Shown here: positions 1-56,522 of the stretch, piece after piece | How the letters are laid out: every line of letters starts with the position of its first letter | Position numbering within the stretch: the stretch's first letter is position 1 | NCBI GenBank assembly: GCA_030390025.1 | Contig: CM059432.1 | Span: forward strand, 5,332,001-5,396,000 | Direction: 5' to 3' | DNA from: Squalus acanthias | Lineage: Eukaryota | Length of the DNA stretch: 64,000 bases | Translations under genes and position numbers: made by a program | Notes under the pieces: model-generated | The model's input: the letters and a program-made list of their open reading frames with translations, nothing else | What the model was told of the DNA's origin: nothing | Database searches by the model: none

Positions 1-1087
1 GAAATTCCTCCTCATCTAAGTCTTAAATGGCCGACTCCTTAACTTGAGACTGTGCCCCCTAGTTCTAGGCTCTCCAGCCAGGGGAAACACCTCTCAGCAT
101 CTACCCAGTCAATCCCCTCTCAGTATCTGGTATGTTTCATAGTTGCTTATTTAAAATTGTTGAGTTGTGACTTCACTTTTTTTAATTTTAAAAGTAACAT
201 TTTGTAGGTTATAAGATTTTCAAGAATAAAATTGTACTTTTGGTTGACTGCTCAAAACAATCTGGGTCTGCATGAGTATTGCATAGTTTTTCCTGCGGGA
301 GAGAGGTGTGCCTTATATCAAATGGGGGGGGGGGGGGGGAACTGCTAAGAGTTAATCCTGAATCTGCCGTTCAACCTTTCTGCTGGATTCTGTCTGAAAA
401 TTCAAAGGGGTACAGTCCTAAAAGATGGTCAATTTCAAAATAATTTGTTCACAAATGCAGACCTTTTAATCAAGCGTTTCACACAGTATGCTGCTGTGTT
501 GTAGCAGAATCTAGCTTGTAACTTTGCACCACCGGTCCCTTCACCCTGCACAGTCTGAACAAAAGACCACTGTAACTACATGACTGCAAGCACTCTGTAG
601 GCAAGCTGAAGAAATGCTGATGGGAACCTTTTTAACTGGTGCGGTATAAAGCTGGATTTTGTGTTGCCGTTTCCTTCACTGGCACTGATTTTCGCTCACT
701 ATAACTGTTTATAAATAGAAAATCATGGTCAAAGCTATGGTATGGTGACCATCTCCACCTGTGAGGCATATAACTCAATTGTTTGCTTGATCAGTGTTGC
801 TTGTGGTGAGATTTGATGAGAGAATGGTCGTCTCTGCCACCCTCTCGTTCCATGAAAGTTTGACTTGTAAGAAAGAATAACATGTTGGGATTGAGAAAGG
901 CCGTTTGATCCATTGGAGCCCATCCTTTCAGTAGATTAACTCCTATCATCATTGTAATTTTTAATAACACAGGTGTTTTTTTCGCCAATAGATTGGTAGG
1001 TGGTTCCAATTATTTCTCATTCTCAGTAATTAATTAAGTTTTTCCTGATGTGCTCAAAATTTGCTTTCCACTCATCTGTGTGCCACA

Positions 1088-1550
1088 GTGTCAGCCGTGG
1101 CTCAGTGGGTAGCACCCTCGCCTCTGAGTCAGAAGGTTGTGGGTTCAAGTCCCACCCCAGAGACTTGAGCACAAAAATCTAGGCTGACACTCCAGTACAG
1201 TGCTGAGGGAGTGTTGCACTGTCGGAGGTGCCGTCTTTCGGATGAGACGTTAAACCGAGGCCCCGTCTGCCCCCTCAGGTGGACGTAAAAGATCCCACGG
1301 CCACTATTTCGAGCAGGGGGCGTTTTCCCTGGTGTTCTGGCCAATATTTATCCCTCAATCGACATCACTAAAACAGATTATCTGGTCATTATCATATTGC
1401 TGTTTGTAGGAGCTTGCTGTGTGCAAAATTGTCTGCTGTGTTTCCAACATTAAAACAGTGACTACACTTGAAAAAGTAGTTCATTGACTAAAGTGCCTTT
1501 GGGATATCCAGTGGTCGTGAAAGGCGCTATATAAAATGTCTTTCCTCTTT
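1088..1550 (+). mobile_element. Full-length Deu-domain SINE (SacSINE1/AmnSINE1-like)
   Basis: tRNA head (TGGCTCAGTGG; GGTTCAAGTCCC), Deu-like core ggatgagacgttaaaccgaggccccgtctgc...ggccaatatttatccctcaa, L2-like tail aaaggcgctatataaa. Confidence 0.85.
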
Positions 1551-1907
1551 CTATTCTGATCCTGTTTTCTTGATGCACTCTGAACTGTTGATCTGGGTTT
1601 ACTTGTCTACAACCATTGAATATTTTACACAATTTGAAATGGTTCATCCTTAACCATCAAAACTGTGAAACTTTAATCCCTCTAAACTTTCTTCATAATT
1701 CAACCTTTTATATTTGTTTTTTTGTATCCTTTCGAACTGTATCCTAATGACCATGACTGAGTGCCGTGTTCTCGGTTTGGGCTAACCAGAGTATTCCAGA
1801 GCTTAAGCATAACAGGTGTAGACTTGGACTCTAATGTTTTAGACCTATATCCTAGTATGCTATTGGTGTTTTATAGCATTGCCACACTGAAAGTTGAGTC
1901 TACTTTT

Positions 1908-2865
1908 ACATAAGAGTTTACAGCACAGAAACAGACCATTCGGCCCAACTGCTCTCTGTCGATGCTTATGCTCCACACGAGCCTCCTCCCACCCTACTTT
2001 GTCTAACCCCTTTTATTCCTTGCTTCCTCATGTACTTATCTAGCCTTCCCTTAGATGCATCTATACTATTCGCCTCAACTACTGCATGTGGTAGCAAGTT
2101 CCACATTCCAACCACACTCTGGGTAAAGTAGATTCTCCTGAATTCCCTACTGGATTTATTGGTGACTATCTTATACTTAGGGCCCCTAGTTTTGGTCTCC
2201 TCCACAAGTGAAAAGGTCCTCTCTACATCTACCCTATCAAACCCCTTCATAATTTTAACGACTTCTATCAGGTCATTTCAATTACAATTATGTGAACATA
2301 GTAATATCATAGAGTCATGGAATAGTGCAGCACAAAAGGCGACCATTCAGCCCATCGAGTCTGTGCGGCTCTTTCGTAGAGCAATTCAGTTAGTCCCACT
2401 AACCCCCCCCCCCCCCCCCCCATATCTCTGTAATTTTTTCTCCTTCCAGTATTTCTCCAATTCCCTTTTGAAGGCTACTATTGAATCTGTATCCACCTCC
2501 CTATCAGGCAGTGCATTCCAAATCCTAACCACTCGTTGCGTAAAAAAGTTGTTCCTCATGTCGCATCTGGCTCTTTTGACAATCACCTTAAATCTGTGCC
2601 CCCTCTGGTCATCGACCCTTCAGCCATTGGAAACAGTTTCTCTTTATTTACTCTATCTAAACCCTTCATGATTTTAAACACCTCTATCAAATCTCCTCTT
2701 GGCCTTCTCTGCTCCAAGGAAAACAACCCCAGCTTCTCCAGCCTATCCACATAACTGTATTCCCTCATCCCTGGAACCATTCTAGTAAATCTCTTCTGTG
2801 CCCTCTCCAAAGCCTTCATGTCCTTCCTAAAATGTGGAGAATTGGACACAATACTCCAGCTGTGG
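1908..2865 (-). mobile_element. Two tandem CR1 LINE 3' fragments
   Basis: ALERAQKRFTRMVPG...LFSLEQRR.RGDLIEVFKIMKG...FFTQRVVRIWNALP. Confidence 0.88.
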
Positions 2866-3499
2866 ATACAGTAAATCCCACGATAATGGTGTAATCATTG
2901 ATTTGTCAAATATGCTTTGTTGCATTTTGGACACGTTTTTAAAAAAAACTTAAATGTTCGTTCAACAGTTTTTTCGCATTTCTCATTACATATGGCAATT
3001 CAACTCCTAGCTGATCCTGAGTGAAATGAGTTTCTACAATTAGTTCCTGGGGGTGGGGTGAGCTAAATTAGCGGTCTCATTCTGGGCTCAAAATGGCTGG
3101 TATTAGAAATTGTCACATTCATTCAGTTGTAAGTCTCTTCTGAGGCTGGAGTTAAAGACCATTGTTGGGGTAAAATAGAAGGGATTTCTCTGAGTCAGAA
3201 GATTGTGGGTTCAAGTCCCACTCCAGAGATTTGAGCAGTATATTTTTTTTCAAAAGGGAGCACAAGAACATAAGAAATAGGAGCAGGAGTGGGCCGTACA
3301 GCCCCTCGAGCCTGCTCCGCCATTCAATAAGATCATGGCTGATCTACCTCAACTCCACTTTCCTGCCCGATCCCCATATCCCTTGATTCCCTTAGTGTCC
3401 AAAAATCTATAATGTAGCCTCATTCATTCATTTACTGCCCAATCCTACCTCTTCCCAGCCTGCTTCCAAGTCGGGTAAATTCAACAGAAAAGACAGCCG

Positions 3500-4045
3500 G
3501 TCTCGCCTCCTGACTCCCCAAAGCCTTTCCACCATCTACAAGGCACAAGTCAGGAGTGTGATGGAATACTCTCCACTTGTCTGGATTAGTGCAGCTCCAA
3601 CAACACTCAAAGCTCAGTGCCATCCAGGACAAAGCAGCCCGCTTGACTGGCATCCCATCCACCACCTTAAACATTCACTCCCTGCACCACTGGCGCACCG
3701 TGGCTGCAGTGTGTACCATCTACAAGATGCACTGCAGCAACTCGCCAAGGCTTCTTCAGCAGCACCTCCCAAACTCGCGACCTCAAGGGCAGCAGGCGAA
3801 TGGGAACACCATCACCTCCAAGTTCCCCACCATCCTGACTTGGAAATATATCAGCCGTTCCTTCATCATTGCTGGGTCAAAATCCTGGAACTCCCTCCCT
3901 AACAGCGCTGTGGGAGTACCTTCACCACACGGACTGCAGCGGTTCAAGAAGGCGGCTCACCACCACCTTCTCAAGGGCAACTAGGGATGGGCAATAAATG
4001 CTGGCCTTGCCAACGACACCCACATCCCAGGAATGGATTAAAAAA
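3500..4045 (+). mobile_element. LINE-B 5'-truncated copy (3' end)
   Basis: ORF end ...LQRFKKAAHHHLLKGN* and tail gggcaataaatgctggcc...cacatccc. Confidence 0.85.
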
Positions 4046-5344
4046 GTCTCATTGTCACATCTGTCATTATCCATGTTGCGAGAGGGCAATGTCATTGGGT
4101 AGTAGGTGGGCAGGAATGTGTGGCTACAGGCTTTATTCCCCATAATTGTGTACACAAAATGGCAACTAACTTATTGAAAAAAAGAAAAACTATTCCACTT
4201 GGTTTTTAAACTTTTTTTTCGACAGATTGGCAGCAAAAGATGACATTTGTTTCTAAAATACTAATATTTCAGTGTTCTATTCATCTCATTTTAATATTTT
4301 TATATATATATAAAATATCTGTTCACAGAAGGTTGGAGTATACGCTAGTTTATAAGGACAGTAGCATTCTAGCATGCAGCTACAATGTATTTTGTTAAAG
4401 AGCAACAGTGTATAACTTAGTGTGTCCTTTTAAGGGCAAGTGGTGTAAGTGTTGCTTCCTCAGTGATTAGATGCTGATTGCTGTTCGGAGATTCTTAGAT
4501 CGTTAAAGGTTGCACTAGATTTTTTTAATGGATACTTTAAAAAAAATAATGTATACTCTTTTTCTAAATGGACTCCAAAAGTCAATTGGAAGGTCCAGTT
4601 TGCCTTCCTTGGGTCGATTAGAGGCTACTTGCTGCTAATAGATCCTCAGTTCAATTCAAGATCAGACTGCAGCAGGAGGGTCGGTAACCACAAACACCGA
4701 TTTAAGGTCATTGGCAAAAGGACCAAAGGGGAGATAAAAGGAAAGAATCGTACTGCACAGAAGAGATCTTTCGGCCCATCATGCCTGCCGGCTCTTTGAA
4801 AGAGCTATCCAGTTAGTCCCACTCCCCTGCGCTTTCCTCAGATGAGAGTTTTTTTTAAGCAGTGGAATACGCTGCCTGAAAGGGTGGGGGGAGCAGATTC
4901 AAGAGTAACTTTCAAAAGGGGATTCGATACATACTTGAAAGGGGAAAAAATTGCAGGGTTCTGGGGAAAGAGCCGGGACGAATTGGAGAGCTTTTTCAAA
5001 GAGCCGGCACAGGCACGATGGGTTGAAAGTCCACCTTCTGTGCTGTAAGAACTCCAGTAACAGGCTGTGCAACAAAACCAGTTGATGTTTCAATCGTATT
5101 TCCCAGTAGAACACCACATCCCATGATGGTGGCGGCACAATGGGTGGAATTCCTGTTGCAGTTTTTTTGTACTTGACAATTTCAAAGTTGACAACTGTTG
5201 GTATCGTGGCACCAATATTTCATTAAATAAATGTTGAGGTTTTGCTATATTTAATCCAGTAATAAAATCAGCTACCCATTGTAATAGATACATTAAGGTT
5301 ATGCCTTACCTATCGGAAAGAAAGAAAGACTTGAATTTATACAG

Positions 5345-6812
5345 ATGCCCTAACTAATCTTCCAAAGTGTTCTCGAGTCAAGAACAGTTCCTTTAGATTA
5401 GAAAATTGCGCATGTCACTCTGCTATTTAAGAATGGTGAGAGAGGGAAACCAGGAAATTATAGACCAGTTAACCTAATATCTGTTGTCAGGAAGTTTACT
5501 AGAGTCTATAATTAAGGATAGGGTGACTGAACACCTTTAAAGTTTCAGCTGATCAGAGAGAGCAGGATGGATTTGTGAAAGGTCGGTCATGCTTGACGAA
5601 CCTGATTGAATTGTTTGAAGAGGTAACTAAAGTACTGGACAGGGGAATGTCTCTGCATGTTATTTATATGAATTTCCAGAAGGCATTTGATAAAGTCCCT
5701 CCTACGAGACTGTTAACTAAGGTTGAAGCCCGTGGAATTGAAGGCAAATTATCGACCTGGTTAGGAAATTGGCTGAGCGGCAGGAGACAGAGTCGGGATA
5801 ATGGGCAGGTACTCTAGTTGGCAGGGTGTGACTGGTGGTGTCCCGCAGGGATCTGTGTTGGGGCCTCAACTATTCACAGTATTTATTAACGACTTAGATG
5901 ATGGGATAGAAAGCCGCATAGCCAAATTTGCCGATGACACAAAGATAGGCAGCATTGTAGGCCGTGCAGATGAAAGCATAGAATTAGAAAAGGGATATTG
6001 ATAGATTAAGTGAATGTGCAAAACTGTGGCAAATGTGAGGTCATCCACTTTGGACCTAAAAAGGATAGAACAGGGTACTTTCTAAATGGTGCAAAGCTAA
6101 AAACAGTGTCGGTCCAAAGAGTCTTGGGGGTCCAGGTACATAGATCATTCAAATATCCTGAACAGGTATGGAAGATAATCAAAAAGGCTAATGGAATGCT
6201 GGCCTTTATATCTAGAGGACTAGAATACAAGGGGGTGGAAGTTAAGCTACAGCTGTACAAAGCCCTGGTTAGACCACACCTGGGGTACTGTGAGCAGTTC
6301 TGGGCACCACACCTCAGGAAGGATATATTGGCCTTGGAGGGAGTGCAGCGTAGGTTTACCAGACTGATACCCGGACTTCAAGGGTTAAATTACGAGGAAA
6401 GATTACACAAATTAGGGTTGTATTCCCTAGAATTTAGAAGGATAAGGGGTAATTTGATCCAAGTTTTCAAGACATTAAGGGGAACAGATAGGGTAGATAG
6501 AGAGAAACTATTTCCACTGGTTGGGAGTCAAGGACTGGGGGTGTAGTCGAAAAATTAGAGCCAGATCTTTCAGGAGTGAAATTAGGAAACACTTCTACAC
6601 AGGACGGTAGACGTTTGGAACTCTATTCCGCAAACCGCAATCGATGCTAGATCAATTGTTAATTTTAAATCTGAGTGATAGATTTTTGTTAACCAAAGGT
6701 ATTAAGGGATATGGGCCAAAGGCGGGTATATGGAGTTAGGTCGCAGATCAGCCTTGATTTCATTGAATGGCGGAACAGGCTTGAGGGGCTGAATGGCCTA
6801 CTGCTGTTCCTA
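5345..6812 (+). mobile_element. CR1/HER1-like LINE RT fragment with 3' tail
   Basis: [43 protein letters not shown]. Confidence 0.92.
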
Positions 6813-8750: not shown

Positions 8751-10423
8751 GGTATGAGGAAATACAAATACAAAACAAACAAGTTGGGGTGAAATGGGGC
8801 TTTTTTTTTTGTTATAGTGATGCAGATTATGGAAGTAATGTGATAAGTGTTTGTTTAAAAATTCTGAAAGGAATTGAGAGGCTGGACAGAAGCCGAGTAT
8901 TTGCTGCAGTTGAAGTGTCAAGTATGTGGAGTCAGAGATTTAGGACAGAGAGCAAGAGAAATTTCTTTGTGCAGGGAGTTGTGAGGTTGTGTAATTCCAG
9001 GGTTAGTGGTTGAGGCAGAAACTGTTGCAACATTCAAGATTAAATTGGATAGGTGGGTGAAAGAAAATGGGATCTGTGAATAGGTTGGGTTAATGTGATT
9101 TGGACCGTTTATTCCAAGAGGAGGGCAAACACTACCATTGACATGGTTGGGCCGAATGGCCTGTTTGTGTGTTGGAACTTCGATGCAAGGCAAATTAAAC
9201 CTGCTGGCTATTTGATTTTTCTTCCTTTCTGGTTATAACAGTTCTTCGAAGGAAAATGGCTTATTGCGAATCGAAAATTTCCCAACCATTCCTTCATGTT
9301 CTCATTCTCGAACCCCTCAACAGAAGTGACATCATGGTAGTTTTATCTTTGCAATAGCTAAATTTATGTCAGTCGAGTAGACTTTCGGTAAAGGTCTAAT
9401 ACTGGTAATAAAATAGGCAAAGCACAGTAGATGTGACATGTTTTCCTCTTTGGTATTTTACATTATGACCTGTATTAAGTTTTGGTGAAATATATTTGGG
9501 TTTTGATCTAAATAAGTGATGTCATTCTAAATCAGTGTCAGCTGTGACTCAGTGGGCAGCACCCTTGCCTCGGAGTCAGAAGGTTGTGGGTTCAAGTCCC
9601 ACTCCAGAGACTTGAGCACACAAATCTAGGCTGACATTCCAGTGCAGTGCTGAGGGAGTGCTGCACTCTCGGAGGTGCCGGATTTTTCCCCGGTGTCCTG
9701 GCTGGCCAGGAGTGCGTTGGAATAGTTAAGTCTGGAGCTAACAAAGGCATGGATGAGGGTTTCAGCAGCAGATGAGCGGGGGTGGAGTCGGGCAATGTTA
9801 CGGAGGTGGAAATGGGCAGTCTTGGTGATGGCGCGGTTATGTGGTCAGAAGCTCATCTCGGGGTCAAATGTGACACCAAGGTTCCCAACAGTCTGGTTCA
9901 GCCTCATACAGTTTCCAGGGAGAGGGATGGAGTCGGTGTCTAGGGAACGAAGTTTGTGGCGGGGACCGAAGACAATGGCTTCAGTCTTTCACATACACTT
10001 TCCAGCACGAAACTGATCAGAAAGGAAGCCCTTGGTTTTTAACCCTCCCTCGCTAAGGGGCAATGAGGGCAATTCTAGCACCCCACCTGCTCTATTGACA
10101 AACTCAGCAGAGAGCAGGGATTGAACCTGAGCCCCTCTGGCTCGTGTGGGTTAGTTTGACGGTGGGTGCTGCCGTTACACCATAGACCGTTGGAGAGATC
10201 ATTTTGCCACTCCATATTGGAGTGTAACGAAATTGGCAAAGCACCTCTGTCCCTTGGACAGGTATTAGAAGATGTGTTGGTAATCCCAGTTCCGTTCTAA
10301 TTATAGCTTGGCTTGATGCAGTTGAAACGTCTGTATAAGTTATAGCCGCAGAGCATATTTTCTTCATGGGTTTGAATTCATTGTCTTTCCGTGAGAGTCC
10401 TGATTGTTTTGTGGAATTATTTA

Positions 10424-10718
10424 CCCCCCAAAACTCGCAACCTCTACCACCTAGAAGAACAAGGGCAGCAGGCGCATTGGAACACTGCCACCTCCAAGTT
10501 CCCCTCCAAGTCGCACACCATCCTGACTTGGAAATATATTGCTGTTCCTTCATAGTCGCTGGGTCAAAATCCTGGAACCCTCTCCCTAACAGCACTGTGG
10601 GAGCACCTTCACACGGACTGCAGCGGTTCAAGAAGGCGGCTCACCACCACCTTCTTGAGCAATTAGGGATGGGCAATAAATGCTGGCGCCCACATCCCAG
10701 GAATGAATTTAAAAAAAT
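10424..10718 (+). mobile_element. LINE-B 3' fragment
   Basis: Same tail and SFIVAGSKSWN peptide. Confidence 0.8.
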
Positions 10719-13517: not shown

Positions 13518-15036
13518 TACGAATTGGGAGCAGGAGTAGGCCACTTGGCCCCTCAAGCCTGCTCCGCCATTCAATAAGATCATGGCTGATCTGATTACTC
13601 CACATTCCCGCCTACCCCCGATAACCTTTCACCCCCTTGCTTATCAAGAATCTATCTACTTCTGCCTTAAAAATATTCAAAGACTCTGCTTCCAGCGCCC
13701 TCTGAGGAAGAGAGTTCCAAAGACTCACGACCCTCTGAGAAAAAATTTCTCCTCATCTCTGTCTTAAATAGGTGACCCCTTATTTTTAAACAGTGACCCC
13801 TAGTTCTAGATTCTCCCACAAGAGGAAACATCCTCTCCACATTCACCCTGTCAAGACCCCTCGGGATCTTATATCACCTCTTACTCTTCTAAACTCCAGC
13901 AGATGCAAGCCTAGCCTGTCCAACCTTTCCTCATAAGACAACCCACCCATTCCAGGTATTAGTCTAGTAAACCTTCTCTGAACTGCTTCCAACGCATTTA
14001 CATCCTTCCTTAAATAAGGAGACCAATACTGTACACAGTACTCCAGATGTGGTCTCACCAATGCCCTGTATAACTAAAGCATAACCTCCCTACTTTTGTA
14101 TTCAATTCCCCTCGCAATAAACGATAACATTGTATTAGCTTTCCTAATTACTTGCCTACTAACCTTTTGCGATTCATGCACTAGGACACCCAGATCCCTC
14201 TGCATCTCAGAGCTCTGCAATCTCTCACCATTTAGATAATATGCTTTTTTATTCTTCCTGCCAAAATGGACAATTTCACATTTTCCTACATTATACTCCA
14301 TTTGCCAGATCTTTGCCCACTCACTTAACCTATCTATATCCCTTTGTAGCCTCCTTATGTCCTCTTCACAATTTACTTTCCTACCTATCTTTGTGTCATC
14401 AGCAAATTTAGCAACCATACCTTCATCCAAGTCATTTATATAAATTGTAAAAAGTTGAGGTCCCAACACTGATCCCTGTGGCACACCACTCGTTACATCT
14501 TGCCAATCAGAAAATGACCCATTTATACTTACTCTCTGTTTCCTGTTAGCTAGCCAATCTTCTATCCATGCCAATATGTTACCCCTACACCATGAGCTTT
14601 TATTTTCCGCAATAACCTTTGATGTGGCACCTTATCAAATGCCTACTGGAAATCTAAGTACAGTACATCCACCGGTTCCCCTTTATCCACAGCACATGTT
14701 ACTTCCTCAAAGAACTCCAATAAATTGGTTAAACATGATTTCCCCTGCCTGATTACCTTGAACTTTTCTATAATGCCCCTGCTATAACGTCTTTAATAAT
14801 AGCTTCTAACATCTTCCCTATGACAGATGTTAAGCTAACTGGTCTGTAGTTCCCTGCTTTCTGTCTCCCTCCCTTTTTGAATAAAGGAGTTACATTTGCT
14901 ATTTTCCAATCTAATGGAACTTTCCCCGAATCTAGGGAATTTTGGAAAATTAAAATCAACGCATCAACTATCTCACTAGCCACTTCTTTTAAGACCCTAG
15001 GATGAAGTCCATCAGGACCCGGGGACTTGTCAGCCC
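13518..15036 (-). mobile_element. CR1/HER1-like LINE RT fragment with tail
   Basis: [46 protein letters not shown]. Confidence 0.93.
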
Positions 15037-15231
15037 AGGAATGAATAAAGAAATGAGCTGAGGAAGGGGCGGAGTTGGGTGATGTTACGGAGGTGGAAGT
15101 AGGTGGCCTTAGTGATGGCGCAAGTTGTTGTTGTTGGTTCACTAATGCCCTTTAGGGAAAGAAATCTGCCTTCCTTAAACATTCTGGCCTATACATGACC
15201 CTAAGTCCCACACCAACTTGCTTGACTCCTA

Positions 15232-15406: not shown

Positions 15407-15841
15407 CAGGTCAGAGGCTAGGTATTCTGCAGTGAGTGTCTCACCGCCTGACTCCCCAAAGCCATTCCACCATCTACAAGGCACAAGTAAGGAGTGTGAT
15501 GGAATACTCTCCACTTGCCTGGATAAGTGCAGCTCCAACAACACTCGAAGCTCAAAACCATCCAGGACAAAGCAGCCTGCTTGATTGACACCCCATCCAC
15601 CACCTTAAACATTCACTCCCTCCACCACCGGCACACTGTGGCTGCAGTGTGTACCATCTACAAGATGCACCGCAGCAACTCGCCAAGGCTCCTTCGGCAG
15701 CACCTCCCAAACCCGTGACCTCTACCATCTAGAAGGACAAGGGCAGCAGGCGCATGGGAACTCCACCACCTCCAAGTTACACACTATCCTGACTTGGAAA
15801 TATATCGTCATTCCTTCATCGTCGCTGGGTCAAAGTCCTGG
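15407..15841 (+). repeat. Inverted duplicate arm of the LINE-B 3' region
   Basis: Reverse complement of 15959-16094 plus ~300 nt absent from that arm; shares private variants. Confidence 0.8.
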
Positions 15842-18800
15842 GATGTGGGCGTCGCTGACAAGGCCAGCATCCTTAATTGCCCATGAGAAAGTGGTGGTGA
15901 GCCGCCGCTGCAGTCGTTGTAGTGAAGGTACTCCCACAGTGCTATTAGGGAGGGAGTTCCAGGACTTTGACCCAGCGACGATGAAGGAACGGCGATATAT
16001 TTCCAAGTCAGGATAGTGTGTAACTTGGAGGTGGAATGGCTTTGGGGAGTCAGGCGGTGAGTCACTCACTGCAGAATACCTAGCCTCTGACCTGCTCTTA
16101 TTGCCACAGTATTTATGTGGCTGGCCCAGTTAAGTTTCTGGTCAATGGTGACCCCCAGGATGTTAATGGTGGGGGATTCATCGATGGTAATGCTGTTGAA
16201 TGTCAAGGGGCGGTGGTTAGACTCTCGTTTGTTGGAGATAGTCATTGCCTGGCGCGAATGTTACCTGCCACTTATCAACCCAAGCCTGAACGTCGTCCAG
16301 ATCTTGTTGCATGCGGGCATGGACTGCTTCATTATCTGAGGAGTTGTGAATGTCACTGAACACTGTGCAGTCATCAGCGAACATCCCCATTTTTGACCTT
16401 ATGTTGGAGGGAAAGTCATTGATGAAGCAGCTGAAGATGGTTGTGCCTAGGACACTGCCCTGAGGAACTCCTGCAGCGATGTCCTGGGGCTGTGATGATT
16501 GACCACCAACCACCACAACCATCTTCCTTTGTGCTAGGTATGGCTCCAGCCAGTGGAGTGTTTCCCCCCCCGATTCCCATTGACTTCAGTTTTACATGGG
16601 CTCCTTGATGCCACACTCGGTCAACTGCTGCCTTGATGTCAAAGGCAGTCACTCTCGCATCAACTCTGGAATTCAGCTCTTTTGTCCGTGTTTGGACCAA
16701 GGCTGTAATGCGGTCTGGAGCCGAGTGGTCTTGGCGGAACCCAAACTCTGCATCAGTGAACAGGTTATTGGTGAGTAATTGCTGCTTGATAGCACTGTCG
16801 ACGACACCTTCCATCACTTTGTTGATGATTGAGAGTAGATTGATGGGGTGGTAATTGGCCGGATTGGATTTGTCCTGCTTTTTATGGACAGGACATAACT
16901 GGGCAGTTTTCCACATTGTCAGGTAGATACCAGTGCTATAGCTGTACTGGAACAGCTTGGCTAGAGGCGCAGCTAGTTCTGGAGCACAAGTCTTCAGCAC
17001 GACAACCAGAATGTTGTCGGGGCCAATAGCCTTTGCAGTGCACTCAGCCATTTTTTGTTATCACGTAGAGTGAATCGAATTGGCTGAAGACTGGCTTCTG
17101 TGATGGTGGGGACCTCAGGAGGAGGCCACCATGCATCATCCACTCAACACATCTGGCTGAAGATGGTTGCAAACGCTTCAGCCTTGTCTTTTGCACTCAC
17201 ATGCTGGGCTCCACCATCATTGAGGATGGGGATATTCATGGAGCCGCCTCCTCCTCCCGTTAGTTGTTTAATGGTCCACCACCATTCACGACTGGATGTG
17301 GCAGGACTGCAGAGCTTTGATCTGATCTGTTGATTGTGGGATCGCTTAGCCCAGTCTATAGCATACTGCTTCCGCTTTTTAGCATACATGTAGTCCTGTG
17401 TTGCAGCTTCTCCAGGTTGGCACCTCCTTTTTAGGTGCGCCTGGTGCTGCTCCTGGCATGCTCTTCTACATTCCTTATTGAACCAGGGTTGGTTCCTTGG
17501 CTTGGTAATGGTAGAGTGAAGCATATGCCAGGCCATGAGTCATAACGGCACAGAAGGAGGCCATTCGGCCCATTGAGTCCGTGCCAGCTCTCTGCAGAGC
17601 AATCCAGTCAGTCCCATTCCCCCGCTCTATCCCTGTAGCCCTGCAAGTTTATTTCCCTCAAGTTCCAGTCTACCCTTCAAAACATTGAGTGTCTCCGCTT
17701 CCACCACTTCCGTCGGCAGCGAGTTCCAGGTCCTCACCACTATCTACGTAAAAAAGTTATTCCTCACATCCCCCCTGTATCTCTTGCCCAAAACTTTAAA
17801 TCTGTGTCCCCATGTCCTTGTACCATCAACTAGTGGGAACAGCCTTTCCCCGTCTAGCCTATCCAAACCAGTCATAATCTTGTACACCTCTATCAAATCA
17901 TCCCTCAATCTCTTTGCTCTAATGACAACAAATCCAGCTTCTCCAACCTGTCCTTGAGGTTACAGATTGTGGTGGAATACAATTCTGCTGCTGCTGATGG
18001 CCCACATCACCTCATCGATGCCCAGATTTGAGCTGCTAGATCTGTTCTGAATCTATCCCATTTAGCACGGTGGTAGTACCACACAACACGATGGAGGGTG
18101 TCCTCAGTCTGAAGACGGGACTTTGTCTCCACAATGACTGTACGGTGGTCACTGCTACCAATGCTGTCATGGACAGATGCATCTGCGACAGGTAGATTGG
18201 TGAGGATGAGGTCAAGTAGGTTCTTCCCCTCGTTGGTTCTCTCACCAGACTGGCAGCTATGTCCTTCATGACTCGGTCAGTAGTGGTGCTACCGAGTCAC
18301 TCTGGGTGGGTGACTTCAATGTCTATCACCAAGAGTGCATTCTGTGCCCTTGCTACACTCGGTGCTTCTTCCAAGTGGTGTTCAACATGGAGTACTGATT
18401 CATCAGCTGAGGGAGGGCGGTAGGTGGTAATCAGCAGGAGGTTTCCTTGCCCATTGCTTGACCTGAAGCCATGAGACTTCATGGGGTCCGGAGTCAATGT
18501 TGAGGACTCCCAGGGCCACGCCTTCCCAACTGTATACCACTGTGCTGCCACCCCTGGTGGGTCAGTCCTGTCGGTGGGCCCGGACATACCCAGGGGTGGT
18601 GATGGAGGAGTTTGGGACATTGGCTGAAAGGTATGATTCTGTGAGTATGACTATGTCAGGCTGTTGCTTCACGAGTCGGTGGGACAGCTCTCCCAATTTT
18701 GGCACAAGTCCCCAGATGTTGGTGAGGAGGACTTTGCAGGGTCGACTGGGCTGGATGTGCCGTTTCCGTAGCTGGTGCCGAGGTCCATGCCGGGTGGTCC

Positions 18801-19122
18801 GTCCAGTTTTATTATCATTGTTTCTCGTAGCGGTTTGTTACAACTGAGTGAGTGGCTTGCTCGGCCAGTTCAGAGGGCAGTTAAGAGTCAACCACATTGT
18901 TGTGGGTCTGGAGTCACACATAGGTCAGACCGGGTAAGGACGGCAGATTTCCTTCCCTAAAGGACATTAGTGAACCAGATGGGGTTTTACGACATTCCGA
19001 TAGTTTTATGGTCCCCATTACTGATACTAGCTTTTTATTCCAGATTTATTCAATTAACTGAATTTAAATTCCCCAGCTGCCGTGGTGGGATTTGAACTCC
19101 TGTCTCTGGATCATTAGTCCAG
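15836..19122 (-). mobile_element. Near full-length single-ORF non-LTR retrotransposon ('LINE-B', CR1/L2-group-like): tRNA-derived head + MER131-like body + decayed APE-RT ORF + short tail
   Basis: APE start KVLLTNIWGL...PDIVILTESYL at ~18735. RT motifs [38 protein letters not shown]-box GAGTTCAAATCC at 19088-19099 (minus). Frameshifted, with a CR1 insert at 17540-17955. Confidence 0.85.
17540..17955 (-). mobile_element. CR1 3' fragment nested in LINE-B
   Basis: CR1 tail; the LINE-B sequence resumes at 17956 with a TGAG duplication. Confidence 0.8.
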
Positions 19123-20419: not shown

Positions 20420-20750
20420 TTTTATTCATTCACGGGATGTGGGTGTCGCTGGCAAGGCCAGCATTTATTGCCCTTGAGAAGGTGGTGGTGAGCCGCCGCC
20501 TTGAACCGCTGAAGTCCGCGTGGTGAAGGTACTCCCACAGTGCTGTTAGGGATAGAGTTCCAGGATTTTGACTCGGCGACGATGATGGAACGGCCGATGT
20601 ATTTCCAAGTCAGAGCGGTGTGTGACTTGGGAGGGGAACTTGGAGGTGATGGTGCTCCCGTGCGCCTGCTGCCCTTGACCTTCTAGGTGGTGGAGGTTGC
20701 AGGTTTGGGAGGTGCTGTCGAAGAAGCCTTGGCGAGTTGCTGCAGTGGAG
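20420..20750 (-). mobile_element. LINE-B 3' fragment
   Basis: Reverse complement of the LINE-B tail and ORF end. Confidence 0.8.
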
Positions 20751-21103: not shown

Positions 21104-21885
21104 AGTAACATTCGCACCACACAAGTGCCAGGCAATGACTATCTCCAACAAGCGAGAGTCTAGCCACCTCCCCTTGATATTCAACGGCATTACCATCGCC
21201 GAATCCCCCATCCTGGGGGGGTCACCATTGACCAGAAACTTAACTGGACCAGCCACATCTATATTGTGGTTACAAGAGCAGGCTGGGTATTCTGCAGCGA
21301 GTGAATCACCTCCTGACTCCCCAAAGCCTTTCCACCATCTACAAGGCACAAGTCAGGAGTGTGCTGGAATACTCTCCACTTGCCTGGATGAGTGCAGCTC
21401 CAACAACACTCAAGAAGCTCGACACCATCCAAGAAATAGCAGCATGCTTGACTGGCACCCCATCCACCACCTTAAACATTTACTCCCATCACCACCGGCA
21501 TACCGTGGCTGCAGTGTGTACCATCTACAGGATGCACTGCAGCAACTCACCAAGGCTTCTTCGGCAGCACCTCCCAAACCTGCGACCTCTACCACCGATA
21601 AGGACAAGGGCTTCTGGTGCATGGGAACACCATCACCTACAAGTTCCCCTCCAAGTCACACAGCATCCTGTCTTGGAAATATATCGGCCGTTCCTTCATC
21701 GTCGCTGGGTCAAAATCCTGGAACTCCCTCCCGAACAGCACTGTGGGAGCACCTTCATCACACGGACTGCAGCGGTTCAAGAAGGCGGCTCACCACCACC
21801 TTCTCGAGGGCAATTAGGGATGGGCAATAAATGCTGGCCTTGCCAGTGATGCCCACATCCCATAAACGAATTTAAAAAAAAAAAA
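21104..21885 (+). mobile_element. LINE-B 5'-truncated copy
   Basis: VTFAPHKCQAMTIS...YKAQVRSVLEYSPLAW...HHHLLEGN, tail and poly(A). Confidence 0.88.
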
Positions 21886-22719: not shown

Positions 22720-23740
22720 AATCTGACTGAATTGGCGATATTATTTTGTCACAAAGCCTATTCACTAGTTTTGCTCCTGCATCTCAATGACAATGTGGAG
22801 AAGCTATGTTGCAGAGGACTGGCAACCGAGGGAGGGCACAATGGGCATGACACAAGGTGCATAGTAGAATGCAATTGACTATCCACCAGCTTCGTGTGCA
22901 GTGAGTGAGCCCACACAGGAGTGTAATATTCCGCAACTGAATAGCAGAGTGCAAGATAAGGTGAGCATAAAGTGGAGGTGTTTCCTCCCCAGGCAGAGCT
23001 GGCAAGTTTGGTGATTGGGTTATTTTGGGTTTTGACTTTCTCCGCCATTTTCAGTAGATAGTTTTTGTAGGTTACTGACCAGTTTGTTCCTCCCAAACCC
23101 GGGACCTCTACTACCTAGAAAGTACAAGGGCAGCAGGCGCATGGGAACACCATCACCTCCAAGTTACACACCATGCTGACGTGGAAATATATTGCCGTTC
23201 CTTCATCGTCACTGGGTCAAATTCCTGGCACTCCCTCCCTAATGGCACTGGGAAGAACCTTCACCGCGAAGGTGACTCACCACCACCTTCTCGAGGGCAG
23301 TTGGGGATGGGCAATAAATGCTGGCATTGCCAGCGACTCCCACATCCCTGGAATGAATTTAAAAGGGTGACGCCCAGGTAAACAGGGTGAGCTTCATGTT
23401 TAAGAAATTGACTATTTAGTATGCTAATGTGTTGACGAGAGGCACTAGCATTGAGGAAGTGAAGGACGGAGGACACAGTCTTTGTGGTACTTGGTTGAAG
23501 GCACCATTGTTTCATTTCATATTAGCAAATGGTTTCATACGAACGTACAAAATTGACGGGCAGGAAAAGACCAGCTGGTCCATCAAGCCTGCCCCAGAGT
23601 GAAGAAGTCACCAGCTTGAGTATCAACGGCACTGTCCTCGGCATAGATGAATTTCCCCCATCTGGTCACAGGCAGGTTGTTTACGTACGGATTAAAAAGG
23701 AGCGGTGCTGCGACTGATCCCTGAGGGACGCTGGTTGGGT
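22720..23740 (-). mobile_element. Vingi/Ingi-like (I-group) LINE RT fragment, decayed
   Basis: VPQGSVAAPLLFN, FIYAED, W.LQPSTTKTVSS, HPVYLGVTL, KTQNN.ITKLA.SAWG, LALCYSVAEY.TPVW. Confidence 0.75.
23088..23363 (+). mobile_element. LINE-B 3' fragment nested in the Vingi-like element
   Basis: LINE-B tail interrupting the minus-strand Vingi-like ORF. Confidence 0.8.
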
Positions 23741-40492: not shown

Positions 40493-40687
40493 TCAGTAAT
40501 GGTGACCATGAAACTACCGGATTGTCATAAAGACCCATCTGGTTCACTAATGTCCTTTTAGGGAAGGAAATCTGCCGTCCTTACCTGGTCTTGGCTATAT
40601 GTGATTCCAGACTCACAGCAATGTGGTTGACTCTTAACTGCCCTCTGAAGTGGCCTAGCAAGCCACTCAGTTAAGGGCAGTTAGGGG
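40493..40687 (+). mobile_element. MER131-like SINE body fragment
   Basis: Same body, joined to aagggcagttaggg (LINE-B tail start). Confidence 0.75.
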
Positions 40688-47879: not shown

Positions 47880-48480
47880 ACATTGCTTCAGCTCCCTGTG
47901 CTGTTGACAGGCTGTGGAGGAGCAAAGACGTATTGTGACATGTGCAACAGAGAATGTATTGGAGGCTAGTGTGCAGTGGATGTCTCTACAGTTTTGAGAG
48001 CTGGATTCTGACGCAAGCACAGATGATGATTCTGGATGCTTTTGAAATGCCTTTTTTTATACATTCACGGGATGTGGGCGTCGCTGGCAAGACCAGCATT
48101 TATTGCCCATCCCTAGTTGCCCTTGAGAAGGTGGTGGTGAGCTGCTGCCTTGAACCACTGCAGCCCATGTGGTGAAGGTGCTCCCACAGTGCTGTTCGGG
48201 AGGGAGTTCCAGGATTTTGACCCAGCGACGATGAAAGATCGGCAATATATTTCCAAGTCAGGATGAAGTGTGATTTGGAGGGGAACTTGGAGGTGGTGGT
48301 GTTCCCATGTGCCTGCTGCCCTTCTCCTTCTAGGTGGTGGAGGTCGCAGGTTTGGGAGGTGCTGTCAAAAATTTGCCTGGTACAAAATAACTAGCACTAG
48401 TGTTATGAGAAGGGGGGACTTGCATGCAGTTGCCGTGAGAAGATTTAGAAGGGCAATATATGTGGGCCATGGTTTGAGTG
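47880..48480 (+). mobile_element. Highly decayed RTE-like LINE fragment split by LINE-B
   Basis: YWRLVCSGCLYSFESWILT...LDAFEM then W.KITSTSVMRR...YVGH, resembling RTE LLYGCESWTL...LDAFEM...W.DKITNEEVLRR...YLGH. Confidence 0.5.
48052..48367 (-). mobile_element. LINE-B 3' fragment
   Basis: Reverse complement of the tail and ORF end. Confidence 0.8.
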
Positions 48481-51475: not shown

Positions 51476-52752
51476 AGCTAGGTGGGAAAGTAAGCTGTGA
51501 GGAGGACAGAGTCTGCAAAGGGATTTGGACAGGTTAAGTGAGTAGTCAAGGAGGTGGCAGATGGAGTATAATGTAGGAAAGTGAGGTTATTCACTTTGGT
51601 AGGAAGAATAGAAAAACAGAATTTTTTAAATGGTGAGAAACTATTAAATGTTGGTGTTCAGAGAGATTTGGGTGTCCTTCTACACGAAACACAAAGTTAG
51701 CAAGCAATTAGGAAGGCAAATGGTATGTTGGCCTTTATTGCAAGGGGGTTGGAGTGCAAGAGTAAGGAAATTTTTTTATATTCATTCACGGGATGTGGGC
51801 GTCGCTGGCAAGGCCAGCATTTATTGCCCTTGAAGATGGTGGTGGTGAGCTGCCCTCTTGACAACTGAGTGACTTGCTCGGCCATTTCAGAGGGCAGTTA
51901 AGAGTCAACCACATTGCTGTGGGTCTGGACTCACGTATAGGCCAGACCAGGTAAGGACGGCAGGTTTCCTTCCCTAAAGGACATTAGTGAACCAGATGGG
52001 TTGTTACGACAATCCAGTAGTTTCATGCTCACCATTACTGATACTAGTTTATTATGCCAGATTTATTTAATTAACTGAATTTAAATTCCCCAGCTGCCGT
52101 GGTGGGATTTGAACTCTTGTCTCCAGATCATTAGTCCAGGCCTCTGGATTGCTAGTCTAGTAAAGTAACCACTATGCTGCATTTGTACAGGGCTTTGGTG
52201 AAGCCACACATGGAGTACTCTACAGTTTTGCTCTCCATACCTAAGGAAGGATATTCTTGCCTTAGAGGGGGTGCAACAAAGGTTCACTAGATTGATTCCT
52301 GGATGAGAGGATTGTCCTATGAGGAGAGATTGAGTAGAATGGGCCTATACTCTCTGGAGTTTAGAAGAATGTGAGGTGATCTCATTGAAACAAGTAAAAT
52401 TTTGAGAGGGTTTGACAGGGTAGATGCTGAGAGACTATTTCCCCTGGCTGGAGAATCTAGAACTAGGGGGCATAGTCTCAGGATAAGAGGTCGGCCATTT
52501 AAGACTGAGATGAGGAATTTCTGCGCTCAAAGGGTTGTGAATCATTGGAATTCTCTGCCCCAAAAGGGATGTAGAGTTGAGTATATTCAAGGCTGAGGTA
52601 GATAGATTTTTGGACACTAAGGGAATCAAGGGATATGGGGATAGGGCTGGAAAGTGGAGTTGAGGTAGAAGATCAGCCATGATCTTATTGAATGGCGGAG
52701 CAGGCTCGAGGGGCCGAATGGCGTACTCCTGCTCCTAATTCCTGTGTTATGT
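51476..52752 (+). mobile_element. CR1/HER1-like 3' fragment interrupted by a MER131-like SINE
   Basis: Parallels 24260-25025. Confidence 0.85.
51781..52180 (-). mobile_element. tRNA-headed MER131-like SINE with LINE-B tail, nested in CR1
   Basis: A-box-like AGCATAGTGG and B-box (52105-52116); same body and tail. Confidence 0.85.
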
Positions 52753-54717: not shown

Positions 54718-55130
54718 TTAATTTATGGGATGTGGGCGTCGCTGGCAAGACAAGCATTTATTGCCCATCCCTAATTACCCTCGAGGAGGTGGTGGTGGTG
54801 AGCCACCGCCTTATACAACTGAGTGTCTCGCTAGGCCATTTCAGAGGGGCAGTTAAGAGTCGACCACATTGCTGTGGGCCTGGAGTCACATATAGGCCAG
54901 ACCGGGTAAGGACGGCAGATTTCCTTCCCTAAAGGACATTAGTGAACCAGGTGGGTTGTTAAGACAATCCGGTAGTTTCATGGTCACCATTACTGATACT
55001 AGCTTTTTATTCCAGATTTATTTAATTAATTGAATTTAAATTCCCAGCTGCTGTGGTGGGATTTGAACTCACGTCTCCGGATCATTAGTCCAGGCCTCTG
55101 GATTACTGGGCCAGTGACATGGGTTACCAT
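54718..55130 (-). mobile_element. tRNA-headed MER131-like SINE with LINE-B tail
   Basis: B-box GAGTTCAAATCC; body ggttcactaatgtcctttagggaaggaaatctgcc...cactcagttg joined to the LINE-B 3' end. Confidence 0.85.
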
Positions 55131-56024: not shown

Positions 56025-56522
56025 CATCCACTTGCCTGGATGAGTGCAGCTGCAACAACACTCAAGAAGCTCGACACCATCCAGGACAAAGCAGCCCACT
56101 TGATTGGCACCCCATCCACCACCTTAAACATTCCCTCCCTCCACCGTGGCTGCAGTGTGTACCATCTACAAGATGCACTGCAGCAACTCGCCAAAGCTGC
56201 TTCGACAGCACCTCCCAAACCCGCGACCTCTACCACCTAGAAGGACAAGGGCAGCAGCAGGCGCATAGGAACACCACCACCTGCAAGTTCCCCTCCCAAT
56301 TTATACACCATCCTGACTCTGAAATATATCGTCGTTCCTTCATCGTTGCTGGGTAAAAATCCTGGAACTCCCTCCCTAACAGCACTGTTGGGAGCACCTT
56401 CACCACACGGACTGCAGCGGTTTAAGGAGGCGGCTCACCACCACCTTCTCGAGGGCAATTAGGGATGGGCAATAAATGCCGACCTTGCCAGCAACGCCCA
56501 CATCCCAGGAACGAATAAAAAC
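56025..56522 (+). mobile_element. LINE-B 3' fragment
   Basis: PLAWMSAAATTLKKLDTIQDKAA... plus tail. Confidence 0.85.

What the first reader, a model, noticed from the sequence alone, without database searches (positions are those of the whole stretch)
15836..19122. Candidate Pol III-driven, ORF1-less LINE whose 5' UTR is a tRNA-derived SINE head and body
Seen: on the minus strand a tRNA-type B-box (GAGTTCAAATCC, 19088-19099) and a ~280-nt MER131-like SINE body end at ...cactcagttgta (18839). About 100 nt later the APE endonuclease starts (KVLLTNIWGL...PDIVILTESYL, ~18735), followed by RT and a short tail. The SINE's own 3' tail is absent at this junction, so it does not look like a complete SINE simply inserted upstream, and there is no room for an ORF1. 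Established: LINEs are normally Pol II transcripts, CR1/L2 elements usually carry ORF1, and tRNA A/B-box heads define non-coding SINEs. Inference: an autonomous APE-RT element that has a SINE Pol III promoter as its own 5' end. I cannot exclude that the family is already catalogued.
Basis: partly seen in the sequence, partly recalled or inferred. Interest (0 to 1): 0.92.

Follow-up and report, generated by a model that had tools for sequence, protein, structure and literature searches.

The report
LINE family wearing a SINE head

Summary
On the minus strand, 19122-15839 is one decayed copy of a ~3.3-kb single-ORF (endonuclease plus reverse transcriptase) LINE. Its first ~280 nt are the B-box half of a tRNA-like head plus a SINE body.

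The body-to-ORF junction is not local. A 26-mer across it (up to 3 mismatches) occurs 12,189 times in the 3.7-Gb genome, and the reversed control occurs 0 times.

The window copy lacks 47 nt at its 5' end. Of 29 junction-bearing copies sampled, 17 carry an A-box-bearing head start next to unrelated flanks.

A majority consensus has one open 973-codon frame. It has no room for an ORF1 and no run of four or more T.

Stand-alone SINE copies have the same first ~327 nt joined directly to the LINE's last ~105 nt.

Two linked-variant subfamilies both keep the head.

Pol III transcription is plausible, because LINE and SINE copies share the same 5' end, the A and B boxes fit their consensus, and no terminator is present. 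It is unproven: the lack of T runs is not significant, and no RNA data were usable.

Absence of ORF1 is ordinary for L2-type LINEs. I could not check Repbase or Dfam.

The parts
19078..19122 (-). 3' part of the tRNA-like head (family nt 48 to about 92), with the B box GAGTTCAAATCC at 19099-19088. The first 47 nt of the family head, which hold the A box, are missing from this copy.
   Evidence: Sister copies continue upstream with GG(G)AACGGTAGCGTAGTGG... next to unrelated flanks.
18840..19077 (-). SINE-type body (family nt about 93-327), ending ...cactcagttgta. The same sequence is present in stand-alone SINE copies.
17952..18837 (-). Start of the single long ORF. The frame opens after the TAA at 18840-18838. 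The endonuclease domain begins at KVLLTNIWGL (18735). This copy is broken by stops and frameshifts.
   Evidence: (PF14529/PF03372 on the sister frame P0001).
17540..17951 (-). Nested 412-bp insertion of the 3' end of a different LINE family. Sister copies skip this stretch.
16031..17539 (-). Continuation of the ORF (family nt 1216-2744), with the reverse-transcriptase domain at about 16880-16250.
   Evidence: PF00078 on window frames 16416-17057 and 16217-16585.
15839..16036 (-). 3' terminal block (family nt 3053-3270), ending ...cccacatccc. It is only 80% identical to the reference copy. Family nt 2745-3052 are missing before it.
15407..15841 (+). Inverted partial copy of the same LINE (family nt 2681-3129), abutting the 3' end tail-to-tail. 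This is a local rearrangement or a second insertion.
51775..52180 (-). Stand-alone SINE copy: the same head and body joined directly to the last ~100 nt of the LINE 3' end and an A-rich tail.
54725..55120 (-). Second stand-alone SINE copy, flanked by an 18-bp direct repeat (55165-55148 and 54705-54688).
40493..40672 (+). Partial SINE body copy (family nt 146-324).

Best explanation
The stretch is a dead, 5'-truncated copy of a high-copy LINE family, about 3.3 kb long. The family encodes one 973-codon ORF with an endonuclease, a reverse transcriptase and a C-terminal domain.

The family's own 5' end is a SINE-type module. It consists of a tRNA-like head with A and B boxes (nt 1 to about 92) and a ~235-nt body. 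The ORF frame opens immediately after this module.

A SINE with the same first ~327 nt and the LINE's last ~105 nt coexists with it. The two elements differ only by the coding insert. Either could be the parent: the SINE could be an internal deletion of the LINE, or the LINE could have arisen by template switching from a LINE RNA onto a SINE RNA.

Shown here: the architecture, its copy number, the common 5' terminus, the open consensus ORF, and subfamily succession with the head retained.

Inferred: the RNA that is copied starts at the head's first nucleotide because RNA polymerase III initiates from the A and B boxes, as for the SINE, and reads through 3.3 kb that hold no T4 terminator. The ORF would then be translated by a non-canonical route, since there are nine upstream ATGs and no in-frame ATG before the endonuclease.
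For: Junction shared across the family:
- All 40 matches scored, out of 5901 first-look candidates, cover the 301-nt junction query. One of them is the window copy itself. The other 39 are 89-91% identical.
- The junction 26-mer (up to 3 mismatches) occurs at 12,189 places, the reversed control at 0.
- The exact junction 22-mer occurs at 2063 places.

Five-prime ends of the 29 loci L002-L030:
- 15 start within head nt 1-20.
- 2 more have a variant head that still carries an A box.
- 1 starts at nt 37.
- 11 start at nt 69-207.
- Flanks upstream of the head are unrelated.
- Copy L038 sits cleanly inside another repeat, with its boundaries at the head start and the A-rich tail.

Promoter motifs and start site:
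- The A box TAGCGTAGTGG fits TRGCNNAGTGG, and the B box core GTTCAAATCC fits GTTCRANNCC. The A box begins about 8 nt from the copies' 5' end.
- Stand-alone SINE copies start at the same nucleotides (GGNACGGTAGC...) in 5 of 16 (L048, L049, L052, L055, L058). A sixth, W52, starts about 6 nt in. The rest are 5'-truncated or start later in the head.

Coding capacity:
- The consensus of 49 aligned rows has one open 973-codon frame, nt 329-3247.
- Pfam finds endonuclease and RT domains.
- The sense strand has 0 runs of T>=4, against 13 of A, 11 of C and 9 of G.
- Shared non-CpG variants are enriched for synonymous changes: 29 S to 32 N, against 329 S to 784 N for private variants (OR 2.16, P=0.004, 45 rows).

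Persistence of the architecture:
- Two linked-variant subfamilies, at 2.8-3.6% and 3.4-5.7% divergence, both include head-bearing copies.
- 0 of 14 endonuclease-side samples show another 5' UTR or an ORF1.
- There are nine ATGs upstream of the frame, and none is in frame before nt 1187.
Against: - The absence of T runs is not significant. The expected count is 1.5 under dinucleotide shuffling (P(0)=0.21) and 1.78 under synonymous-codon shuffling (P(0)=0.14).
- With only the 28 junction-bearing rows, the synonymous enrichment weakens. OR is 1.74 with P=0.039 at >=3 copies, and it is not significant at >=4 (P=0.24) or >=5 (P=0.13).
- The head is only weakly tRNA-like. ARAGORN calls it in 1 of 15 heads at default settings and 4 of 15 when relaxed. 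Rfam finds no tRNA match at E<=1 in 5 loci.
- No full-length copy with clear target-site duplications was found (0 of 10).
- All 14 near-full-length copies examined are broken.
- Published opinion holds that LINEs are Pol II transcripts and that Pol III processivity limits element length (PMC10886601, passages). A 3.3-kb uncapped transcript would be poorly translated.
- AATAAA motifs lie near the 3' end.
Confidence: 0.5

Rival explanations
1. The architecture is the same, but the LINE RNA is an ordinary Pol II transcript. The SINE-derived 5' region acts as an internal Pol II promoter that happens to start at the head's first nucleotide. The A and B boxes matter only for the short SINE.
For: - All characterised LINEs are described as Pol II transcripts, and Pol III is regarded as too weakly processive for long elements (PMC10886601, passages).
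- The element is 3.3 kb and must be translated.
- AATAAA lies about 45 nt before the 3' end.
- The absence of T4 runs is within chance.
Against: - LINE and SINE copies share the same 5' terminus, at the distance from the A box expected for a type-2 Pol III promoter.
- The advantage of a cap is undercut by nine upstream ATGs and no in-frame ATG.
- No Pol II promoter feature was identified, though none was specifically tested.
Confidence: 0.3
2. The element is effectively a giant SINE. A SINE captured a LINE coding region once, and the chimera was amplified in trans by protein from other LINEs that recognise the shared 3' tail. Its own ORF is not needed.
For: - There is no in-frame ATG.
- Head, body and tail are exactly those of the SINE, which is mobilised in trans.
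- All near-full-length copies examined are broken.
- The signal of selection is modest when restricted to junction-bearing rows.
Against: - The consensus ORF is open for 973 codons.
- Shared variants lean synonymous.
- None of the non-CpG shared variants is a stop.
- Two successive subfamilies keep both the head and the open frame.
Confidence: 0.12
3. The junction arose by chance or by repeated independent events. Either a SINE was inserted next to a LINE at this locus, or one-off template-switch chimeras formed like U6/L1 or tRNA/L1 insertions.
For: Small-RNA/L1 chimeras do exist as isolated insertions, for example 21 tRNA/L1 loci in human (PMC13174262, passages).
Against: - The identical junction occurs at 12,189 places.
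- All 39 scored sister copies cover the junction.
- The SINE tail is absent at the junction.
- Linked subfamily variants run across the element.
Confidence: 0.01

Closest known systems
Stringent-type, ORF1-less L2-clade LINEs and their SINEs (ZfL2-2; UnaL2/UnaSINE1)
   Same: They have a single endonuclease-RT ORF and no ORF1p, and the partner SINE shares the LINE's 3' tail. PMC3880073 (passages) states that ZfL2-2 lacks ORF1p. The UnaL2/UnaSINE1 pairing is recalled. The compact size matches the nearest protein relatives, which are 930-960 aa on 3.2-4.0-kb contigs.
   Different: Here the SINE and the LINE also share the whole 5' ~327 nt, including the A/B-box head. Clade membership was not tested, because no reference RT set is on hand.
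RTE/Vingi LINEs whose 5' UTR and 3' UTR form SINE bodies (Kojima 2018, PMC5786205)
   Same: The SINE consists of a head, a stretch shared with the LINE's 5' part, and the LINE's 3' tail. This is the bipartite relation.
   Different: In that model the small-RNA head is added to a deleted, non-autonomous LINE, and the autonomous LINE has no head (passages read). Here the coding LINE itself carries the head. The family has a long C-terminal domain and tail unlike the very short RTE 3' UTR; this comparison is recalled, not tested.
HE1 SINE / HER1 LINE of elasmobranchs (Ogiwara et al. 1999)
   Same: This is a tRNA-derived SINE of sharks and rays that shares its 3' tail with a CR1-like LINE. It is listed in PMC3747384 (table passage). 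It may be this very family.
   Different: The original papers are not held and no sequence is available, so identity could not be tested. Nothing I could read describes a head on HER1.
TRIMp3 elements (Cassandra, Helenus, Ajax; Kojima 2024, PMC10886601)
   Same: They are retrotransposons that carry a small-RNA-derived Pol III promoter as their own promoter.
   Different: Those are short (up to 1.3 kb), non-coding LTR elements. The paper argues that their autonomous partners must use Pol II (passages). Here the promoter-like head sits on a 3.3-kb coding element.
U6/L1 and tRNA/L1 chimeric insertions (PMC13174262)
   Same: A small RNA is fused 5' of LINE sequence, plausibly by template switching. 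This is a likely way for the fusion to have arisen.
   Different: Those are isolated dead insertions, and the tRNA ones are mostly antisense half-tRNAs (passages). Here one fusion became a propagating lineage.

Membership tests
Non-LTR retrotransposon (LINE) with endonuclease and RT | Apurinic-type endonuclease domain followed by a reverse-transcriptase domain in one ORF | tested here: met
   PF14529/PF03372 match P0001 (E 1e-13 and 2e-11). PF00078 matches the window frames and L043/L044 (E down to 5e-39). The consensus frame is 973 codons.
Non-LTR retrotransposon (LINE) with endonuclease and RT | Many 5'-truncated copies sharing a common 3' end | tested here: met
   The window holds eight 3' fragments beside the long copy. 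Sister copies start at nt 37-207. All share the common 3' end ...CCCACATCCC followed by an A-rich tail.
tRNA-derived SINE head (SINE2-type Pol III promoter) | A box and B box matching consensus at tRNA-like spacing, at the element's 5' end | tested here: met
   TAGCGTAGTGG lies at nt 8-18 and GAGTTCAAATCC at about nt 69-80 of the consensus and of natural copies. The consensus motifs themselves are recalled.
tRNA-derived SINE head (SINE2-type Pol III promoter) | Recognisable tRNA cloverleaf or similarity to a tRNA model | tested here: inconclusive
   ARAGORN of 15 heads at default settings (L039, Thr-AGT-like, 92 nt) and 4 of 15 at relaxed thresholds. Rfam gives no match at E<=1 in 5 loci.
tRNA-derived SINE head (SINE2-type Pol III promoter) | Transcription by RNA polymerase III | not testable with these tools
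   No run is on record as RNA. The contigs laid cannot show transcript starts.
CR1/L2 group of LINEs | RT groups with CR1 or L2 reference elements in a phylogeny | not tested
   No reference LINE set is held. Protein searches returned unnamed relatives at 46% identity or less.
CR1/L2 group of LINEs | An ORF1 upstream of the endonuclease-RT ORF (typical of CR1, variable in L2) | tested here: not met
   The 328 nt before the frame are all head and body. The only upstream frame is a 48-codon overlapping ORF, whose ATG is present in 20 of the 34 copies that cover it.
Bipartite LINE-derived SINE (Kojima 2018 model) | The SINE's middle matches the LINE's 5' part and the SINE's tail matches the LINE's 3' end | tested here: met
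   SINE copies share nt 1 to about 327 and the last ~105 nt with the LINE. The SINE junction pattern occurs at 1262 exact places.
Bipartite LINE-derived SINE (Kojima 2018 model) | The autonomous LINE lacks the small-RNA head | tested here: not met
   17 of 29 junction-bearing LINE copies carry the A-box head.
One-off small-RNA/LINE chimeric insertion | A junction unique to one or a few loci | tested here: not met
   The junction occurs at 12,189 places.
HE1/HER1 or MER131 | Sequence identity to the published or Repbase consensus | not testable with these tools
   No Repbase or Dfam library is held, and the original papers are not held. MER131 is listed only as an unclassified SINE in PMC5753468 (passages).

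The most novel reading that the evidence does not exclude
This would be a protein-coding, autonomous LINE whose retrotransposition template is a ~3.3-kb RNA polymerase III transcript, initiated from a SINE-type A/B-box head and translated without a cap or an AUG in frame. Its partner SINE would simply be its internal-deletion form. That would erase the rule that Pol II makes LINEs and Pol III makes SINEs.
Probability: 0.45. Interest if true: 0.9.

Novelty: new variant of a known kind. Interest (0 to 1): 0.72.

Why it matters
Textbook and current specialist accounts separate autonomous LINEs (Pol II, coding) from SINEs (Pol III, short, parasitic). They treat Pol III processivity as a limit on element length (PMC10886601, passages).

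A LINE lineage with about 12,000 junction-bearing copies that begins at a SINE's first nucleotide gives a natural test case for several questions:
- whether Pol III can produce a translatable, kilobase-scale retrotransposon RNA;
- how SINEs are born, since here one deletion converts LINE to SINE;
- why conserved SINE bodies persist.

Even if Pol II proves to be the polymerase, a SINE module serving as a LINE's 5' UTR and promoter is not described in the open literature I could search.

Tried and rejected
- **RNA evidence.** The look-up of sequencing runs listed no holder on record as RNA. The four runs laid (X1, X4, X9, X10, contigs only, kind guessed) cover all 30 bins. SINE-type joints at 2633 to 5464/5465 appear in X1 and X4 and at 2630 to 5464 in X10. 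Contigs cannot show transcript starts, strand or level, and no begin/end pile-ups were reported.\n- **Target-site duplications.** None was convincing in 10 full-length copies.\n- **Programmed frameshift.** There is no X_XXY_YYZ slippery site in the overlap between the short ORF and the long ORF.\n- **Clade naming.** Two protein searches returned unnamed relatives at 46% identity or less. Pfam gave only the generic endonuclease and RT families.\n- **Rfam.** It found nothing for the head or body.\n- **Earlier notes of this scan.** There were none by place, by sequence or by words.\n- **Relative age of SINE and LINE.** SINE copies are 2.7-12% from their consensus and LINE copies 1.9-5.7%. The LINE sample was the top-scoring, and so youngest, hits, so I draw no polarity from this. 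CpG-type differences between the SINE consensus and the LINE 5' consensus point both ways.\n- **Literature.** Searches found no paper describing a LINE with a SINE or tRNA head. Ogiwara 1999 and 2002 are not held.\n- **Supplements.** None were read.
Full report
**What is in the window**

Read on the minus strand, 19122-15839 is one copy of a LINE.
- the B-box-like GAGTTCAAATCC lies at 19099-19088;
- the SINE-like body ends ...cactcagttgta at 18839;
- a TAA follows at 18840-18838, and the long frame opens right after it;
- KVLLTNIWGL begins at 18735.

Pfam finds reverse transcriptase (PF00078) in window frames 16416-17057 and 16217-16585. It finds the endonuclease families PF14529 and PF03372 in the equivalent frame of a sister copy.

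The copy is dead, with many stops and frameshifts. Comparison with sister copies shows four further defects:
- it lacks the first 47 nt of the family;
- it holds a 412-bp nested insertion of another LINE's 3' end at 17951-17540;
- it lacks family nt 2745-3052;
- it ends in a block (16036-15839) that is only 80% identical to the reference, abutted by an inverted partial copy at 15407-15841.

**The junction belongs to the family, not the locus**

A 301-nt query across the body-to-ORF junction gave 5901 first-look candidates. All 40 that were scored cover it. One is the window copy itself and the other 39 are 89-91% identical.

The 26-mer spanning the junction, with up to 3 mismatches, occurs at 6094 + 6095 = 12,189 places in the 3.71-Gb assembly. 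The reversed pattern occurs at 0. The exact 22-mer occurs 2063 times.

To ask whether other members have a different 5' UTR or an ORF1, I counted a 22-mer at the endonuclease start. It occurs at 4198 exact places. I then fetched the upstream 250 nt of the first 14 of these places that had no exact junction match:
- 11 align contiguously across the junction, at least 65 nt into the SINE-type body;
- 1 has the body, with an internal deletion that removes the junction;
- 1 starts 13 nt before the junction;
- 1 starts at the junction;
- none has another 5' sequence.

**Where full-length copies begin**

Among the 29 loci found with the junction query (L002-L030), the starts are distributed as follows:
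- 15 start within the first 20 nt of a head that the window copy lacks, GG(G)AACGGTAGCGTAGTGG...;
- 2 more have a shorter variant head that still carries the A box;
- 1 starts at nt 37;
- 11 start at nt 69-207.

Upstream flanks are unrelated between loci.

The A box TAGCGTAGTGG fits the recalled type-2 consensus TRGCNNAGTGG. The B-box core fits GTTCRANNCC. The A box lies about 8 nt from the copies' 5' end.

One copy (L038) sits inside the 3' tail of another repeat, whose sequence resumes after the A-rich tail. This fixes both boundaries of the inserted unit. Otherwise no target-site duplications were seen (0 of 10 copies).

The head is only weakly tRNA-like by structure:
- ARAGORN of 15 heads at default settings and 4 of 15 when relaxed;
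- Rfam gives no match at E<=1 in 5 loci.

**The family consensus**

I aligned 49 natural rows, 12 near-full-length and 37 partial. I took a majority consensus inside the script. It is 3295 nt long and has a single open frame of 973 codons (nt 329-3247).

The 328 nt before the frame are all head and body, so there is no room for an ORF1.

There is no in-frame ATG before nt 1187. Nine ATGs lie upstream. The one at nt 357 opens a 48-codon frame that overlaps the long ORF. That codon is ATG in 20 and ATA in 12 of the 34 copies that cover it. No slippery heptamer lies in the overlap. How the ORF is initiated is therefore unresolved.

None of the 14 near-full-length natural copies examined has an intact ORF. 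Copies lie 1.9-5.7% from the consensus, and the window copy lies at 5.7%.

**Relation to the SINE**

Three stand-alone SINE copies in the window and 14 fetched by a body-to-tail pattern show the SINE's structure. It has the same head and body up to ...CACTCAGTTGTA, joined directly to the LINE's last ~105 nt and an A-rich tail. The junction comes in three forms that differ by small deletions (1262 exact places).

Five of the 16 aligned SINE copies (L048, L049, L052, L055, L058) begin GGNACGGTAGC, which is the same start as the LINE. A sixth, W52, begins about 6 nt in. The rest are 5'-truncated or start later in the head.

So the SINE and the LINE differ only by the ~2.8-kb coding insert.

I cannot say which came first. 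SINE copies look older (2.7-12% from their consensus). However, my LINE sample was the best-scoring hits and so is biased towards young copies. CpG-type differences point both ways.

**Is it an evolving, coding lineage?**

Shared non-CpG variants in the ORF are 29 synonymous to 32 non-synonymous. Private variants are 329 to 784. The odds ratio is 2.16 with P=0.004, from 45 rows after dropping 4 misaligned rows that were more than 10% diverged.

Restricted to the 28 rows that demonstrably carry the junction, the effect keeps its direction but weakens:
- OR 1.74, P=0.039 at a threshold of >=3 copies;
- P=0.24 at >=4 copies;
- P=0.13 at >=5 copies.

Linked variants at nt 344, 359, 929, 1661 and 1927 define an older and a younger subfamily. 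Both include head-bearing copies. The window copy belongs to the older one.

Together with the open consensus frame, this favours a LINE lineage that kept both its coding capacity and its SINE-type 5' end through subfamily turnover.

**Pol III or not**

In favour of Pol III:
- The A and B boxes sit at the canonical distance from the 5' end.
- LINE and SINE copies share the same 5' terminus.
- The 3295-nt sense consensus holds no run of four or more T, against 13 such runs of A, 11 of C and 9 of G.
- The uATG-laden leader with no in-frame AUG means a cap would give little help to canonical scanning.

Against Pol III:
- The T-run result is within chance. The expected count is 1.5-1.8 with P(0) of 0.14-0.21.
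- Specialist opinion holds that LINEs use Pol II and that Pol III is too weakly processive for long elements (PMC10886601, passages).
- An uncapped 3.3-kb RNA would be poorly translated.

No usable RNA data were found (see Tried and rejected).

I put Pol III initiation at about even odds. A Pol II promoter within the SINE module gets about 0.3. A trans-mobilised 'giant SINE' whose ORF is not used gets about 0.1.

**Comparison with what is known**

- *ORF1-less LINEs.* Compact LINEs without ORF1 are known. ZfL2-2 lacks ORF1p and is active (PMC3880073, passages). The nearest protein relatives here are at most 46% identical, 930-960 aa long, and sit on 3.2-4.0-kb contigs.
- *SINEs built from LINE ends.* SINEs built from a LINE's 5' and 3' parts are known for RTE and Vingi (PMC5786205, passages). 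In that model the autonomous LINE has no head.
- *Pol III promoters on retrotransposons.* These are known only for short non-coding LTR elements (PMC10886601).
- *tRNA/L1 chimeras.* These are isolated dead insertions (PMC13174262, passages).
- *HE1/HER1.* This elasmobranch pair (listed in PMC3747384) may be this family. The original papers are not held, and I could not compare sequences.
- *MER131.* The likeness could not be tested either. PMC5753468 lists MER131 only as an unclassified SINE.
- *Literature searches.* Seven full-text searches found no description of a LINE carrying a SINE or tRNA head. Repbase and Dfam could not be consulted, so the consensus may already be catalogued without comment.

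**Verdict**

The structural interpretation is supported. The Pol III mechanism is plausible but unproven. I rate the finding a new variant of a known kind, with high interest if the polymerase question resolves in favour of Pol III.

Noticed in passing
window 17540-17951 (-): A nested 412-bp fragment of another LINE family's 3' end. It encodes ...RLRDDLIEVYKIMTGLDRLD..., and the same family flanks copy L038. It was inserted into the LINE copy after that copy arrived.
   Followed up: partly
window 15407-16036: A tail-to-tail arrangement. The LINE's last 218 nt (80% identical, minus strand) are followed by an inverted copy of family nt 2681-3129 (plus strand), while nt 2745-3052 are missing from the main copy. 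The inverted arms of about 70 nt could form a hairpin. The origin is unresolved: it could be a second insertion or a rearrangement.
   Followed up: partly
window 55165-55148 and 54705-54688: An 18-bp direct repeat, GTCTGATCTTCATTACAT, flanks the SINE copy at 55120-54725. About 27 extra or degenerate nucleotides lie between the 5' repeat and the recognisable head. So this retrotransposition machinery can make long target-site duplications, although none was seen for 10 full-length LINE copies.
   Followed up: partly
window 3500-4029, 10423-10687, 20434-20747, 21105-21862, 23089-23348, 48069-48364, 56027-56507, 57432-57723: Eight 5'-truncated 3' fragments of the same LINE family lie within 64 kb, showing how densely the family populates this genome.
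   Followed up: partly
window 15135-15231: A 97-nt stretch is 78% identical to the SINE body (family nt 193-288), in the opposite orientation. It is probably an older relative of the SINE.
   Followed up: no
window 14768-15151 (-): An open 127-codon frame carries reverse-transcriptase motifs of a different LINE family.
   Followed up: no
family nt 357-503 (window frame 18669-18869, -): A short ORF of 48 codons in the consensus overlaps the start of the long ORF in another frame. Its ATG is polymorphic between subfamilies (ATG in 20 copies, ATA in 12). The layout recalls, from memory, the small overlapping first ORF of RTE elements.
   Followed up: partly
L003:1979 and L018:1978 (head region): Two LINE copies have a shorter head that lacks about 23 nt between two near-identical segments (CTGGGCTAGTAATCCAGAGGC and CTGGACTAATGATCCAGAGAC). 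This suggests slippage between an internal direct repeat of the head.
   Followed up: no
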